The notes under the pieces: model-generated | What the model was told of the DNA's origin: nothing | What the model saw: only the letters and a program-made list of their open reading frames with translations | Database searches by the model: none | Position numbers and translations under genes: made by a program | Shown here: positions 1 to 63,731 of the stretch, in pieces | How the letters are laid out: each line of letters begins with the position of its first letter | How positions within the stretch are numbered: position 1 is the stretch's first letter | Assembly (NCBI RefSeq): GCF_000372725.1 | Contig: NW_005201298.1 | Location: forward strand, 187,457-251,392 | Length of the DNA stretch: 63,936 nt | Direction: 5' to 3' | Origin: Emiliania huxleyi CCMP1516 | Taxonomy: Eukaryota

Positions 1-2247
1 CGGAGGGAACCACGAGGCGAGAGCTACTCCAACCCCAACCCGGACCCTGACCCTTACCCTGACCCGTACCCTTACCCTTGCCCCAACCCTGACCCTGACC
101 CTGACCCTGACCCCAACCCGAACCCTGACCCTCACCCTAGGTCAGCAGCGGGGGCGAGAACTGGCTGGCGTACTCGCGGCGGTACCCAAACGGCCACGCC
201 GCCGCGCGGACCGACTCCTTTCACAGTGAATCATTCATCGCGAAGCAGTTATTGGTAGGCCACGCCGCAGCGCAGTCCGACTCCTTCCTCTGGTACTCGC
301 TCGAGGTATATCTCCCCACTCCCCCATATCTCCCCCACATCTCCGCCTTCCCGGCAGAGGTGGGTCCACCCTCCCCTACCCCAACGGTACCCGAACCCAC
401 CCTCCCCTACCCCACGGTACCCGAACCCACCCAGCCTTCCCGGGCGAGGTGGAGTGCTCACCTCCCTGCACCGACCCTTGCACTTTGAGTGTGCCGTGCC
501 GGCTCCAGCCCGTGTGGGGATGCGAGGGCTGCCTGGCCCTTGCCCCACCAGGAAAGTGACCCTTCCTTCCTTCTCTCGAGGCGGGGCCGGCGCATGTGAT
601 GATGCTCTGCTCGTACGCCGCGAGCGGCCCAGGCTCGCCGCAGCATGAGTGACTGACAGGTCCATGACATGTCCTGGACATGTCCGGGACATGTCGTGCA
701 GGCTCGCCGCAGCATGAGTGGCTCACACGCGACCTCGCTTCGGTCGACCGCCGCCGCACGCCCTGGCTGATCGCAGTGCTGCACACGCCGTGGCGCGCCT
801 CTCATGATATCTCCCCATAGTATCTCCCAATACCTCCCCGTATCTCCCCATAGTATCTCCCAATACCTCCCCATATCTCCCCATATCTCCCCACATCTCC
901 CCATATCTCCCCATATCTCCCCGTACCTCCCCGTATCTCCCCATATCTCCCCATATCTCCCCGCGTCTCATGCCGTGGCACGCCTCCAACCGCCACGAGG
1001 AGCGGATAGATAGGTAGGAAGGCGAAACACAGTCCGACCAACGACAGGGACACTGGCGCGGTATGGGCGGACGCACGACGGGCGGTGACGGTCACACAGG
1101 AGCGACGAGGAGCGGGGAGATATGGGGAGATATGGGGAGATATGGGGAGCTGCGCTCCTCGCGTGGTGAGAGCGACTCGGTGATGCCCCTTTGAGGTACA
1201 CCTCCAACCGCCACCACCCGATGAGCGAGGGCGCGAGGATGCGAGAGGACCTCGAGCCCCTCCTCCTCGCCGCGGGAACAGACCTCGTCCTCAACGGCCG
1301 CGCGCACCCTCGACGAGCACGCCGGGCCCAGAACGAAGAAGCACGCGCGCAGATCGACTTCTTTTATTAGGCCGTGTGCGCCTCTACGAGCGGGCCCAGA
1401 AAAAGAGACATCACGCGACACTGTACTTCTTTCTTAGGCCACGTGCACGCCTACGAGCGGACCCACCCGGTCGCCCCCCCCCNNNNNNNNNNNNNNNNNN
1501 NNNNNNNNNNNNNNNNNNNNNNNNNNNNNNNNNNNNNNNNNNNNNNNNNNNNNNNNNNNNNNNNNNNNNNNNNNNNNNNNNNNNNNNNNNNNNNNNNNNN
1601 NNNNNNNNNNNNNNNNNNNNNNNNNNNNNNNNNNNNNNNNNNNNNNNNNNNNNNNNNNNNNNNNNNNNNNNNNNNNNNNNNNNNNNNNNNNNNNNNNNNN
1701 NNNNNNNNNNNNNNNNNNNNNNNNNNNNNNNNNNNNNNNNNNNNNNNNNNNNNNNNNNNNNNNNNNNNNNNNNNNNNNNNNNNNNNNNNNNNNNNNNNNN
1801 NNNNNNNNNNNCGGGTCCATGACACGTCCCCGACATGTCCAGGCTGCGGAACGACGACCCGTGAAACCACCCGGCGGCCGCATCGGCGACTGCGCCGCCC
1901 CCCTCGCCCCGAGCGGAGGAAGTGGGCGATGGACGAGCGTGCCGACGGCTGATCGGACTTTACTAGGCGACCGCGCCGTCCTCGAGAGGAGGGCGGGCGG
2001 GCGGGGGGGGTCCCCCGCCCCCCCGCCCGCCCAGCTCGCCGCGGAGGCGGAGCCCTGCAAGCAGTACGCGGCACGGGCGGCATGCGACGCCGACGCGAGC
2101 TGCACGTGGTGCGACTGCGCGGCGGTGCCCTCCTCGTGCTGGGACCTCGCGTCGGCCAAGCGGCTCCCCCCGAGCGTGTATACGTGCGACTCCGCCCGCC
2201 ACCCCCGCCCGCCGCCGCGGGGCGACGCGCCGGCAGCGCGGGCGTAG
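1..2247 (+). CDS. Purple acid phosphatase / calcineurin-like metallophosphoesterase, multi-exon, 5'-truncated by the window edge and interrupted by an N-gap
   Basis: Spliced exons give GNHE (1-17), DRRRTPWLIAVLHTPW|YTSN and DLVLNG|HVHAYERT, the conserved PAP metal-ligand motifs. Inferred introns include 18-140, 193-258, 306-580 and 633-701. Assigning 1812-2247 to the same gene is tentative. Confidence 0.85.
30..140 (+). repeat. Telomere-like (CCCTGA/CCCTAA-variant)n hexamer run inside an intron
   Basis: About 18 degenerate CCCTRA-type hexamers ending in ccctag (acceptor). Confidence 0.8.
1483..1811. other. Assembly gap
   Basis: Run of N. Confidence 1.
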
Positions 2248-2771
2248 TAGGGGCTGAGGTAAGGGGCCCACAGCGCCCCAAAATCCACCAGTGTGGGATT
2301 TCGCGCAAAAGCTTGACTCTGAAAAGCTCGCAATGTACCTTTCTGAGCGCTGTGGTCGCCGCAGACTGGCTCCAACTTGACGGCGGCATGGAGGCACATG
2401 ATCGATGATGCCTCCAAGCTCCATGGACCATGCCGCCGTCAAGTCGAAATCGACATGCAGCTCGATGGTTTGCCCGAAAAGGTACATCGCGGCGTTTTGG
2501 GCGACAACAGCGCTGCGACCGCGAAGTGGCGGTGGACATGCTCCCACGTTGCCGACGTGTGGCGCCAGAGTGGCCGGCGCTGCTCGCCGCGACCACGACG
2601 GCTACTCCGATGCGGTCCGGGCCGACCCGTCCTGGGCGAGGTGGAGGGCGGCGGCGGCGTGAGCAGCGGTGGCGGCGGTGTGAAGGGGGGGTGGAGGGCG
2701 GCGGCGGCGTGGGCGGTACGGCGGCACGGCGGTAACGGACGGCAGGGGGGGGCGGCGGGCTAAACGGCAAG

Positions 2772-60882: not shown

Positions 60883-63731
60883 TCATAACTCCTCGTGCTC
60901 CTCGGGCGTGCCGTAAAAGTCTTCGTCGCCCTCCCCGCCGCCCGGCCCGGCGCCCCCCCTGTACTTGCGGAGCAGAGGCTCGACGCTCGAGTCGCGCAGC
61001 TCGGCGAGCCTCTCCTCGAATGGGGCGGGGCTGGACGCCTAACAAAGCACCGAAGGTTCGTCACCTTCTCGCCAAGGAGTCGAGCGAACCGCTCCTCGAC
61101 ATGACGTCGAGTTGCAAACCGGAGGCTAGAGCTCGGCTTTTAGCTTGCGGGGTCCAAGTGTTCAGCTCTTCCGCGCGGGGCGGGAGACGGGCGGGAGACG
61201 GGCCTCGTCGGCGTCGCTGTCCAGCCAGTCGTCGACGAGCTCGAGCGCCTTGTCGATCTCGTCGCGGTGCGCGTCCTCGATCTCGTCGCCCCGCTCCTTG
61301 AGCTCCTTCCGGATCGAGTAGATGTACCCCTCGAGCGCGGCGCGGGCCTAACGCCACCCTCGGTACTCGCACTCTTGCCGATTGGCTGTTGCTACTGGCA
61401 CGCGAGGAGCAGGCCTGCAGCTTGGCCAGCGCCTTCTCGTCCTCTCGCCTGTAGTCCTCCGCCTCGCGCACGAGCCTGTGATCAACTCACTCACTCTCGG
61501 TCATTCGTGGCCAATTCACAGCCCCTCCCGCCCCGCGCCACGGGCCTCTCGATCTCGTCTTGGTTGAGCTTGTCCGAGTTTGTGATTGTAATCTTTGCGT
61601 TGACGCCCGACGTGTGCTCGCGCGCGCTCACAGCGAGGATCCCATTCGCGTCGATGTCAAACGTCACCTGTCATCGGCCCAGGCGGTCAAACTTCCCTCG
61701 GCAACGGCGACGGCGCCGCGCGCGCGACGGCGGACGGACGCCTCGATCTGCGCGGAGCCCTTTGGCATCGGGGGGAAGCCGGAGAGTTCGAACTGGCCGA
61801 GGAGGCGGTTGTCCTGTCATTATGCATGAGCAATTAATCAGCTGACTGATAGCGGGACAGCTCAAATTGGCCGAGGAGGCGGTTGACCCTCGTCAGCTGC
61901 CGTTCTCCCTCGAACACCTTGTTTGAGACGGCCGCCTGGCCGTCCTCTTGGTTGGTGTAGGTCTTGCTCGCGCTCGCCGGCACGACGGTGTTGCGCGGGA
62001 TGACCTGACGCACGAATTCACCAATCAACTAGCGAACGAACTGATGACGAGGAGGACGGCTGTTGCGCGGGATGGCCTTGTCCATCACTCCACCCGTCAC
62101 CTCGAGGCCGAGGGTCAGTGGCGTAACGTCCAGCAGCAGCAGCTCCTCCGTCACCTTGTCGCGCTCTCCGGAGAGAACGCCCGCCTGCACCGCAGCGCCG
62201 TAAGCGACCGCCTCGTCAGCATTGACGGCCGTGCTCGGCTCCTTGCCTATGAAAAAAAGAAAGACGCGCCTCGTATTTCTTTTTTCATAGGCGGCCGTGC
62301 TCGGCTCCTTGCCGTTGAAGAAGTCCTTGAGCAGCTGCCGAACCTTTGGGATGCGAGTCGAGCCGCCGACCAGGACGATCTCGTCCACCTCGCGCTTGCT
62401 CACCCTTGCGTCCGTCAGCACGCGCTGCACCGGTGCAAGGGTCGCCTTGAAGAGGTCCGCACACAGCTCCTCAAACTTGGCGCGGGTCACCGTCTCCGAA
62501 AAGTCTCGCCCCGCCGCGAGCGACTCGACCTCGACGCGCGCAGAACTCTCCGACGACAGCGCGCGCTTCGTCCGCTCCGCCTCGCGCCGCAGCCTCGCCT
62601 TGGCGGAGGGGGAGGTCACCGTCGCGCCGGGGTGCTTCCTTGCGTGCAGGCCGAGCAGGTACTCGACGAGCCGGTTGTCTAGGTCCTCGCCCCCGAGGTG
62701 TGTGTCGCCCGCCGTGGCGAGAACCTGCGGGGGGGGAGGCACTCCCGCCTCATCTCAACCTCACGCACCCTCGCGCAACCTCGCGCACCCTCGCGCAATC
62801 TCGCGCAGTCTCGCGCAATCTCGCGCACTCTCGGCGTCTCCCGCCGCCGGGATCGCCTCGAAGACGCCCGCATCGATGGAGAGGAGCGACACGTCGAACG
62901 TTCCTCCTCCCAAGTCAAACACGAGCACGTTCGCGCCCGAGTCGCTCGAGCGGTCGAGGCCGTACGCGAGCGCCTGGCGAGGCGTCGACAAGTGAATGAG
63001 TCTGCCCGAAGTGATTCATACTAGTTGACAGTATTCATTCATATTCAGCGAGCGCCGCAGCGGTCGGCTCGTTCAGAATCCGCATCACATTCAGCCCAGC
63101 GATGGTGCCGGCGTCCTTGGTCGCCTGGCGCTGCGCGTCGTTGAAGTAGGCGGGGACGGTCACCACCGCGTTGCGCACCTCCTCCCCTAGGAAGGCCTAG
63201 TGTGACGAAACTGATGACGGTGACAACTACAAGATCACGGGTGGCGCCGTCACTTGCCGCGCGGAACGCCTCTGCGACGCCCTTCATCTTCCCGAGCACC
63301 ATCGCCGAGATCTCCTGAGGGAGGAGGCGCTTGGTGGCGCCGCCCGCCGCAACTTCGACCGCGGGCTTGCCCTCCGCCGTCGCCACAACCTTGAACGGCC
63401 AGTGCTCCGCGTCCTTCTGCACCTCCTCGTCACGGAAGCCTCTGCCGATGAGCCGCTTCGCGTCGTAAATCGTGTTTACCGGGTTGAGCGACGACTGCGA
63501 GCGCGCGGCGTCGCCGACCAGCCGCTCGCCGTCGTCGGTGAACGCCACCCACGACGGCGTCACTCGGTTCCCCTGCTCGTTGGCGATGATCTCCACCTTG
63601 CCCTTCCGGTAGACTCCGACGCAGGAATAGGTAGTGCCGAGGTCGATGCCGATGACGGGACCGACGGCCTCCGCCTCCTCGGCGGTCGCCGCCGCGGCGA
63701 GAAGCGGGATGAGCGTTATGAGGAGCCTCAT
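60883..63731 (-). CDS. BiP: ER-luminal Hsp70 (BiP-like), multi-exon
   Basis: Signal peptide, [77 protein letters not shown] and C-terminal HEEL*. Confidence 0.95.

What the first reader, a model, noticed from the sequence alone, without database searches (positions are those of the whole stretch)
193..63200. Pervasive 'self-copy' introns: the intron starts with a 15-30 nt copy of the next exon and/or ends with a copy of the previous exon
Seen in at least seven unrelated genes. Examples: 193-258 (GCCACGCCGCCGCGCGGACCGACTCCTT vs exon GCCACGCCGCAGCGCAGTCCGACTCCTT); 633-701 (22-nt perfect repeat); 10464-10540; 17252-17334 (about 36-nt copy of the upstream exon end); 30155-30221 (inside the catalytic DTG codons); 39216-39276 (23 nt); 46099-46167 (27 nt); and 62247-62312 (21 nt). 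Lengths cluster at about 60-85 nt. Removing one copy restores conserved protein motifs exactly. The donor dinucleotide (GC, GT or GA) is simply the first two bases of the duplicated exon. Inference: introns are being created by target duplication plus filler insertion, with the donor taken from coding sequence and the AG from filler or the copied exon end. That would explain the excess of GC donors. The direct repeats I know from introner elements and repair-associated intron gains are only a few nt, so duplications this long and systematic look like a distinct mechanism. The first rpl17 intron (3858-4070, GT-AG) shows no such copy and acts as an internal control.
Basis: partly seen in the sequence, partly recalled or inferred. 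Interest (0 to 1): 0.9.

Follow-up and report, generated by a model that had tools for sequence, protein, structure and literature searches.

The report
Algal introns built from exon copies
In this stretch of DNA from the bloom-forming alga Emiliania huxleyi, about half of the introns begin or end with a 16-45-base copy of the neighbouring exon and are missing from transcript-like contigs; they likely arose when short shared filler sequences were inserted with an unusually long duplication of the target, which would also explain the alga's odd GC splice sites.

Summary
Real and pervasive. The window is Emiliania huxleyi. Of 65 modelled introns in five genes, 33 carry a junction-anchored exon copy above the 99th percentile of mismatched pairs. 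Transcript-like contigs skip them, and an independent environmental contig holds the same introns, so this is no artefact. None of 16 GFAT intron positions is shared with 11 positions in other haptophytes, and one basal genomic copy is intronless: these are lineage-specific gains. In single-unit introns the build is copy (median 27 nt) plus filler (median 42 nt). Fillers form families shared between genes. In 19 of 33 the filler supplies the AG, against 3-6% expected for random filler. This is introner logic, as in Polarella, but with duplications far longer than the 3-8 nt (introners) or 4-12 nt (Daphnia) in the papers read. Copy-plus-filler units then amplify and differ between strains. The enzyme is unknown; later remodelling of older introns is not excluded. 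Ten searches found no description in print. The scan noted similar single cases on other DNA.

The parts
2..1480 (+). Phosphatase-like gene fragment (purple-acid-phosphatase-type motifs, name from recall); introns 17-140, 193-258, 306-580 (or 303-580), 633-701, 793-1195, 1297-1437; not in the 65-intron statistics
   Evidence: open spliced frame; scores; no reads laid; Pfam found nothing on one 29-aa exon
193..258 (+). Intron, GC donor, 28-nt copy of next exon (3 mismatches) plus AT-rich filler
633..701 (+). Intron, GC donor, 22-nt perfect repeat across the junction plus filler family D
3858..4070 (+). rpl17 intron 1, GT-AG, no exon copy (control)
   Evidence: splicing not tested
9643..17961 (-). 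Ufd2/UBE4-core plus UBC gene, 1412 aa, 26 introns: 17586-17431, 17334-17252, 16792-16489, 16390-16240, 16190-16114, 16060-15985, 15842-15774, 15636-15488, 15306-15238, 15105-15042, 14983-14712, 14655-14256, 14089-13954, 13759-13681, 12868-12005, 11883-11812, 11399-11328, 11271-10980, 10901-10798, 10692-10625, 10540-10464, 10433-10360, 10317-10240, 10125-10054, 9981-9840, 9806-9730
   Evidence: open frame; 14 listed joints; Pfam PF10408, PF00179 (below cut-off); the first nine introns and two others were placed by hand
10464..10540 (-). Intron, GT donor, 33-nt copy covering a whole 30-nt micro-exon, filler family B
10625..10692 (-). Intron ending in a 27-nt copy of the upstream exon; both splice sites from the duplicated AG|GT (Rogers-like)
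12005..12868 (-). 864-nt intron: about 14 tandem units of exon copy plus filler family A, spliced out whole
   Evidence: joint in 4 of 4 runs; (12 units counted at 2 mismatches)
17252..17334 (-). Intron, GC donor, AT microsatellite filler, 36-nt perfect copy of upstream exon end
28568..30586 (+). Aspartyl protease (cathepsin D-like); introns 29438-29573 (2 units, family B), 29617-29785 (two stacked modules), 29891-30040 (2 units, family C), 30155-30221 (family B)
   Evidence: 494 of 494 residues equal to transcript-derived P0289; Pfam
30155..30221 (+). Intron inside the catalytic DTG motif, GC donor, 21-nt copy, filler family B
38712..41761 (+). Acyl-CoA oxidase/dehydrogenase-like gene, 581 aa; introns 39216-39276, 39406-39563, 39677-39749, 39877-39948, 40087-40367, 40503-40744, 40853-41042, 41103-41250, 41476-41554
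   Evidence: 7 listed joints in run X8; 61% identity to P0419
39216..39276 (+). Intron, GT donor, 23-nt repeat across the junction, 10-mer filler family G; 45-nt and 55-nt alleles in other strains
45508..50199 (+). GFAT (glmS-type), 16 introns: 46099-46167, 46257-46326, 46383-46454, 46508-46577, 46644-47228, 47299-47484, 47527-47813, 47849-47918, 47997-48610, 48716-48843, 48899-49032, 49128-49204, 49302-49372, 49404-49547, 49658-49736, 49901-49977
   Evidence: spliced alignment; 8 listed joints; model length 2023 nt equals the X1 contig; register of 49404-49547
46099..46167 (+). Intron, GC donor, 27-nt perfect copy of next exon; identical in environmental contig L013
46508..46577 (+). 70-nt unit, one copy in the window, at least four in L013
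53078..53161 (-). Cyclophilin intron with copies on both sides of the junction
   Evidence: splicing not tested
60885..63731 (-). BiP/HSP70, 10 introns: 63269-63197, 63055-62974, 62856-62725, 62312-62247, 62076-62005, 61887-61814, 61741-61668, 61545-61476, 61414-61348, 61203-61039
   Evidence: spliced alignment to BiP homologues; open frame; last donor moved 3 nt by hand; no reads laid
62247..62312 (-). Intron, GC donor, 21-nt perfect copy, hairpin form of filler family A

Best explanation
About half of the introns here are a 16-45-base copy of the neighbouring exon joined to a roughly 40-base filler, and they likely arose by insertion of a filler at a widely staggered DNA break that duplicated the target. 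Shown: the copy-filler-copy build; removal from transcript-like contigs; filler families shared between unrelated genes; positions absent from other haptophytes; unit number differing between strains. Inferred: the filler is copied from the 3' part of other introns or from short intron-bound elements and brings its own acceptor AG; the first G[C/T/A] of the duplicated exon becomes the donor, which a tolerant spliceosome accepts, so one copy plus filler is spliced out and the protein is unchanged. Inferred: the intron copy then decays neutrally, unequal exchange between the two copies adds or removes whole units, and new events across an existing junction stack further modules. The copying step (reverse transcription primed at the break, or break repair templated on another locus) is untested.
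For: 33 of 65 introns above the null 99th percentile. 14 of 15 listed joints and 15 of 15 fit the models. 0 of 16 GFAT positions shared with 11 positions in L004/L018, L017, L003, L016; L011 is intronless with a neighbouring gene. Raw ORFs of the Tisochrysis lutea cluster and P0296 run through all four aspartyl-protease intron sites. 64 of 65 downstream exons start with G; donor spectrum fits coding G|GC:G|GT. In 19 of 33 copy introns at most 1 base before the acceptor end matches the upstream exon, so the AG is the filler's; random filler predicts 3-6%. Family B occurs 4 times in 2 genes at 82-90% identity for the same-orientation pairs. Motifs of families A, B, C occur 48 times in introns and 0 times in about 52 kb outside modelled introns (motifs were drawn from the introns). 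Filler length is narrow (37-56, median 42); total length rises with copy length (rho 0.60, p 0.018) while filler length shows no significant trend (rho -0.31, p 0.27; n=15). Mismatches fall 20:17:16 on the three codon positions, and in 6 of 7 GFAT cases the exon copy fits homologues better, 1 tie.
Against: No allele without the intron was seen: 7 of 7 raw ORFs of the protease cluster and 4 of 4 informative oxidase ORFs read into the intron, so no birth event is caught. Copies are about 9% diverged on average (53 mismatches in 22 copies). The comparison species are distant, so positions may be much older than the present copies. Stacked modules prove that copies also form at existing junctions (sequence). 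25 of 65 introns show no significant anchored copy. 6 of 33 take both splice sites from the duplication, and the filler of 17252-17334 is a plain microsatellite with no AG. Many fillers are low-complexity 10-11-mers, where family likeness may be convergent. Selection against acceptors preceded by coding-like sequence could also deplete Rogers-type cases. No reverse transcriptase or transposase was looked for; no genome was held.
Confidence: 0.6

Rival explanations
1. The introns were born earlier as ordinary introners with a 2-8-base duplication, and the long copies were written in later: the replication fork slips from the donor to the matching start of the next exon, copies 20-40 bases and returns into the intron.
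For: The relative L018 has seven GT-AG introns of 10-mer repeats; in 6 of 7 the next exon starts with GT and only 1 of 7 has a long copy (score 25; one more at 14). Modules are stacked at old junctions. The oxidase intron 1 has alleles with a longer and a likely shorter copy. It explains exact anchoring at the junction.
Against: Filler length stays near 42 while total length follows copy length, which fits addition at insertion better than overwriting. In family B the divergence of copy and filler look similar (n=4, by eye). No copy-free allele was shown: the short allele can be written as an exon copy with one extra base.
Confidence: 0.25
2. Staggered double-strand breaks repaired with random or locally made filler, as proposed for Daphnia, or plain tandem duplication of an AG|GT-containing exon piece (Rogers model).
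For: 6 of 33 copy introns have 4 or more bases of upstream exon before the acceptor, e.g. 10625-10692 and 17252-17334; some fillers are microsatellite- or telomere-like.
Against: Predicts 86-89% of cases with both sites inside the duplication; 18% seen. Fillers recur between genes. Daphnia repeats are 4-12 bp. No intron is only exon copy.
Confidence: 0.08
3. Aborted intron loss: repair templated on spliced mRNA or cDNA copies the next or previous exon over part of an existing intron.
For: Copies start exactly at the junction. It needs no new element.
Against: In 47527-47813 the stacked modules repeat the intron's own 3' tail, which spliced RNA lacks (sequence). No copy was seen to continue into the next exon across a skipped intron; the one case that spans a micro-exon (10464-10540) cannot tell. 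It does not explain where the introns came from.
Confidence: 0.05
4. Artefact: mis-assembly of the genome, or reverse-transcriptase jumps between direct repeats that mimic splicing.
For: The assembly is a gapped draft. Direct repeats can cause template switching. The runs are RNA by guess only.
Against: L013 holds GFAT introns 1-3 with 3 differences in 211 intron bases; raw ORFs from other strains read into the same introns. The unspliced forms break GFAT and BiP. Joints fit G[C/T/A]..AG registers, and introns without copies are skipped in the same contigs.
Confidence: 0.02

Closest known systems
Introner-like elements of Polarella glacialis (classes 1, 4, 5, 6, 8, 10) and Symbiodinium (bioRxiv 10.1101/2020.10.14.339549; parts 1-2 of 4 read)
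   Same: 5' splice site recruited from the target duplication, 3' site carried by the insert; GC and GA donors; downstream exon starts with G[A/C/T]; phase-0 excess; drift towards GC donors.
   Different: Their duplications are fixed at 3-8 nt per class. Here they are 16-45 nt and variable, fillers are short and often low-complexity, terminal inverted repeats are not general, and units amplify in tandem.
Daphnia pulex neointrons from staggered double-strand-break repair (PMC4202315; passages)
   Same: Direct repeat of exon end at the far end of the new intron; repeated secondary insertions.
   Different: 33 exon-intron repeats of 4-12 bp there; no filler families with own acceptor described in the passages seen.
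Rogers tandem-duplication model (PMC3443670; passages)
   Same: Both splice sites from a duplicated AG|GT; fits at most 6 of 33 copy introns.
   Different: There the intron is all exon copy; here a foreign filler always separates the copies and usually gives the AG.
Chrysochromulina introners (bioRxiv 10.1101/2022.06.06.494994; passages)
   Same: Haptophyte; target duplication without terminal inverted repeats.
   Different: 4-bp duplication; they carry the donor and co-opt the acceptor, the reverse of the main pattern here. 'huxleyi' does not occur in that main text or in PMC12130899.
GC-AG excess of E. huxleyi (PMC4028052; passages)
   Same: 56-65% GC donors and some GA donors, some checked by RT-PCR; 68% GC and 8% GA here.
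   Different: That paper ascribes it to genome GC content; the passages seen do not mention exon copies.

Membership tests
Introner / introner-like element | Similar intron sequences at unrelated loci | tested here: met
   Family B in 4 introns of 2 genes, family A in 3 genes, plus 10-11-mer families; only the filler part is shared
Introner / introner-like element | One splice site from the target duplication, the other from the insert | tested here: met
   55 of 65 donors equal the exon start; AG from filler in 19 of 33
Introner / introner-like element | Short target duplication of fixed length (3-8 nt in the papers read) | tested here: not met
   16-37 nt in 22 ungapped 5' copies; 45 nt at 49404
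Introner / introner-like element | Terminal inverted repeats at the insert ends (MITE type) | tested here: not met
   Hairpin inside family B and in one family A copy; absent from the other A copies folded
Introner / introner-like element | Lineage-specific positions | tested here: met
   0 of 16 GFAT positions shared with 11 in relatives; protease sites read through in the Tisochrysis cluster
Introner / introner-like element | Presence/absence polymorphism within the species | tested here: inconclusive
   No empty allele among 11 raw ORFs and L013, at five sites only
Introner / introner-like element | Autonomous partner element | not testable with these tools
   No genome held
Rogers tandem-duplication intron | Both splice sites inside the duplicated exon segment | tested here: not met
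   6 of 33 at most; 86-89% expected
Rogers tandem-duplication intron | Intron made only of duplicated exon | tested here: not met
   37-56 nt of filler in 15 of 15 single-unit cases
Daphnia-type break-repair intron | Exon-intron direct repeat of 4-12 bp | tested here: not met
   median 27 nt here against 4-12 bp
Non-LTR retro-insertion (target-primed reverse transcription; features recalled) | Variable-length target duplication | tested here: met
   16-45 nt
Non-LTR retro-insertion (target-primed reverse transcription; features recalled) | Fixed 3' end with variable 5' truncation | tested here: inconclusive
   Families A and B end alike at the AG, n=4-5 each
Non-LTR retro-insertion (target-primed reverse transcription; features recalled) | Active reverse transcriptase-endonuclease in the genome | not testable with these tools
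   No genome held

The most novel reading that the evidence does not exclude
E. huxleyi makes most of its introns by recycling intron ends: the 3' 40 bases of excised introns are copied into widely staggered nicks in coding DNA by target-primed reverse transcription, with a 20-40-base exon duplication giving the donor. The introns are minisatellite-like units that can expand, stack and be lost precisely by exchange between the two copies. This would be an intron-making route with no dedicated element, invisible to introner surveys that drop low-complexity families.
Probability: 0.2. Interest if true: 0.9.

Novelty: new variant of a known kind. Interest (0 to 1): 0.72.

Why it matters
Where new spliceosomal introns come from is a long-open question, and most gains leave little trace. 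Here about half of the introns in a well-sequenced, ecologically major alga carry a long footprint whose divergence from the exon can date each event. Many strains and sister species exist, so the mechanism can be tested directly. It offers a mechanical reason for the known GC-donor majority. It also explains annotation errors: public models P0001 and P0165 translate intron copies or drop exon pieces at these sites. Tandem units of copy plus filler are a source of length variation between strains inside essential genes.

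Tried and rejected
No whole genome was held, so nothing here is genome-wide. The look-up of sequencing runs listed no holder on record as RNA; all 14 are RNA by guess. Filler patterns found 0 matches in viral contigs and 0 in genome contigs; these collections are not eukaryotic, so the blanks mean nothing. Read et al. 2013 (Nature) is not held by DOI or PubMed id. I first read P0402 as a copy-free allele of oxidase intron 1 (note); P0552 showed it is compatible with a shorter copy, so I dropped that reading. The aligner's register for GFAT intron 13 (49447-49590) was replaced by 49404-49547 because the X1 piece starts at 49547 with no other letters. Dropped before counting relatives' introns: six 39-48-nt calls (five in the variable N-terminal insert of L002, L007, L008, L010, L015, L017 region or at a contig end) and the end-of-contig calls of L006, L008, L013. 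Seven intronless loci without informative flanks (L001, L002, L005, L007, L010, L012, L015) may be transcripts and were not used. The joint 13162-15928 is treated as spurious. A test of mRNA versus DNA template on copies that cross a micro-exon was uninformative. Exon lengths (median 101.5 nt, n=60) showed no periodicity by eye; no formal test. The GFAT tree places haptophytes among Bacteroidota-like proteins, but the set was chosen by similarity, so no transfer is claimed. Look-ups in earlier findings by place and by sequence gave nothing.

Full report
Source. The first GFAT exon is identical to E. huxleyi CCMP1516 model EMIHUDRAFT_416204 apart from a 23-residue gap in that model, and the HSP70 exon matches EMIHUDRAFT_421892 at 100%.

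Observation. All eight cited repeats are present as described. I built full models for five genes with 65 introns: a Ufd2-UBC gene (26 introns, open 1412-residue frame), an acyl-CoA oxidase-like gene (9; 61% identity to P0419), an aspartyl protease (4; 494 of 494 residues equal to transcript-derived P0289), GFAT (16; model length 2023 nt equals the X1 contig; one donor was chosen among in-frame options partly by this length) and BiP/HSP70 (10; homology). Scoring each intron's ends against its own exon flanks, 40 of 65 exceed the 95th and 33 the 99th percentile of 726 mismatched pairs with the same first dinucleotide (from 1500 sampled pairs), and 22 exceed the null maximum. A phosphatase-like gene and a cyclophilin add two more genes. 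The rpl17 intron has no copy.

Splicing and artefact. Contigs of four runs (three studies; RNA by guess) were laid on 9500-29499. Of 80 joints 15 were listed; 14 fit the model, including the 864-nt tandem intron, and 1 is spurious. Two runs on 38600-50300 gave 28 joints, 15 listed, all fitting. An environmental contig, L013, holds GFAT introns 1-3 with 3 differences in 211 intron bases, and raw ORFs of other strains read into the same protease and oxidase introns. Mis-assembly is excluded for these; reverse-transcriptase jumping is unlikely because copy-free introns are skipped in the same contigs and the unspliced forms break essential genes.

Gain or old introns. A scan for a haptophyte GFAT motif gave 18 loci. 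Spliced alignment found 7 GT-AG introns in L004/L018, 2 in L017, 1 each in L003 and L016; none of these 11 positions matches any of the window's 16. L011, in the basal clade near Phaeocystis globosa, is intronless and has a neighbouring gene on the other strand; L009 and L014 are intronless with shorter flanks. For the protease, two raw ORFs of the Tisochrysis lutea cluster break at a site that E. huxleyi lacks and run through all four E. huxleyi sites, as does P0296; these are likely genomic, but partly spliced transcripts are possible. P0173/P0555 (83% identity; longest contig 6.6 kb) read through the first HSP70 site. So the positions are gains on the lineage to E. huxleyi. No empty allele was seen within the species at five sites.

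Anatomy. In 15 single-unit introns with a clean 5' copy, the copy is 16-37 nt (median 27) and the filler 37-56 nt (median 42). Donors are 44 GC, 16 GT, 5 GA; 64 of 65 next exons start with G; 64 of 65 previous exons end with G; the donor equals the exon start in 55. GC:GT does not differ from availability in coding sequence (p=0.20); GA is under-used (p=0.0005); phase 0 (45 of 65) exceeds even the coding expectation (p=0.004). Mismatches between copies fall 20:17:16 on codon positions, as expected if the intron copy drifts and the exon copy is held. Among the 33 copy introns, 19 share at most one base with the upstream exon before the acceptor, 7 share two, 1 three and 6 four or more. Random duplication with random filler predicts 3-6% for the first class and 86-89% for the last. 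So the filler usually supplies the AG. Fillers fall into families: B, a 45-nt hairpin-containing sequence in 4 introns of 2 genes; A, a T-rich unit in 3 genes; and several 10-11-mer repeats. Motifs of A, B and C have 48 hits, all intronic; the motifs were drawn from introns, so only their absence elsewhere is informative.

Later dynamics. Units of copy plus filler are amplified in tandem (2 to about 14 units) and vary between strains: GFAT intron 4 has one unit here and at least four in L013; protease intron 1 has two units here and one in 6 of 7 raw ORFs; oxidase intron 1 has 45-, 55- and 61-nt alleles. Several introns stack different modules at one junction (29617-29785, 15488-15636, 47527-47813, 47997-48610; read from sequence). 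In 47527-47813 the modules repeat the intron's own tail, which points to a DNA template. Because every unit has its own donor and acceptor, any choice of sites removes whole units (inference).

Mechanism. The best fit (0.6) is insertion of a filler with its own acceptor at a widely staggered break, the duplicated exon start giving the donor to a tolerant spliceosome, followed by drift, unequal exchange and repeat events. The main rival (0.25) is birth as short-duplication introners with long copies written in later by template switching. L018 supports its plausibility: 10-mer repeat introns, exon starts matching the donor in 6 of 7, one long copy. Total length tracking copy length with near-constant filler favours the first, weakly. 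Which enzyme copies the filler is not shown. That non-LTR elements make variable-length duplications is recalled, not tested.

Comparison with print. Seen: PMC4028052 (passages; GC 56-65%, ascribed to GC content); PMC4202315 (passages; 4-12 bp); PMC11782384 (passages; repeats of 4-30 bp, mean 11.4, near 213 introns of all kinds, no Emiliania); PMC12130899 (passages; low-complexity families removed, no 'huxleyi'); PMC3443670 (passages); bioRxiv 2020.10.14.339549 (parts 1-2 of 4); bioRxiv 2022.06.06.494994 (passages); PMC12480563, PMC13518057, PMC13508280, PMC10290126, PMC11282704 (passages; no exon copies described). Ten searches (listings only) showed no paper describing long exon copies in E. 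huxleyi introns. Read et al. 2013 was not available; I recall that it reports 10-11-bp tandem repeats enriched in introns, and its text or supplement, or subscription papers, may mention the copies. No supplements were read. The scan's notes report single similar cases in other protists and a haptophyte family with a 15-base duplication; I did not test them.

Verdict. It works like an introner of the Polarella type but fails the short fixed duplication and inverted-repeat tests, so it is not filed as a member. New variant of a known kind; interest 0.72.

Noticed in passing
window 456-575 (+), 16500-16631 (-), 35617-35719 (+), 50389-50574 (-): Four copies of a dispersed element end, 76-85% alike, ending in a short tandem tail; two sit in the sense orientation near the 3' end of introns 306-580 and 16792-16489, two are intergenic. 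Looks like the 3' end of a non-LTR-type element (inference); no target duplication was measured.
   Followed up: partly
L018 (minus strand) GFAT introns; L004: Another haptophyte has seven GT-AG introns made of 10-mer repeats; the last ends with a 25-30-nt copy of the upstream exon, so the phenomenon is not confined to E. huxleyi.
   Followed up: partly
window 17-140 and 46430-46454: Telomere-like repeats used as intron filler.
   Followed up: no
P0001, P0164, P0165: Public gene models are mis-spliced at the copy introns and invent a 23-codon intron in GFAT exon 1 that transcript-like contigs run through.
   Followed up: partly
window 45508-50199: Haptophyte GFATs group with Bacteroidota-like GlmS among the best hits; possible bacterial origin, untested against eukaryotic GFATs.
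   Followed up: partly
window 9643-17961 (-): One 1412-residue protein joins a Ufd2/UBE4 core to a C-terminal ubiquitin-conjugating domain; one X8 contig spans both parts.
   Followed up: partly
window 5690-6560: Large inverted repeat (about 5790-6060 against 6320-6545), possibly a transposon remnant; seen by eye.
   Followed up: no
window 44561-45295 and 54273-55001; 27331-27591 and 31970-32204: Two pairs of dispersed non-coding repeats, 87% over 747 nt and 83% over 265 nt.
   Followed up: no
window 20470-20620: Plain tandem duplication of about 68 nt at the end of an ORF, without filler; seen by eye.
   Followed up: no
10 introns whose donor differs from the exon start: Six have GC in the intron where the exon has GT, one the reverse: possible drift towards GC donors, as reported for dinoflagellates.
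   Followed up: partly
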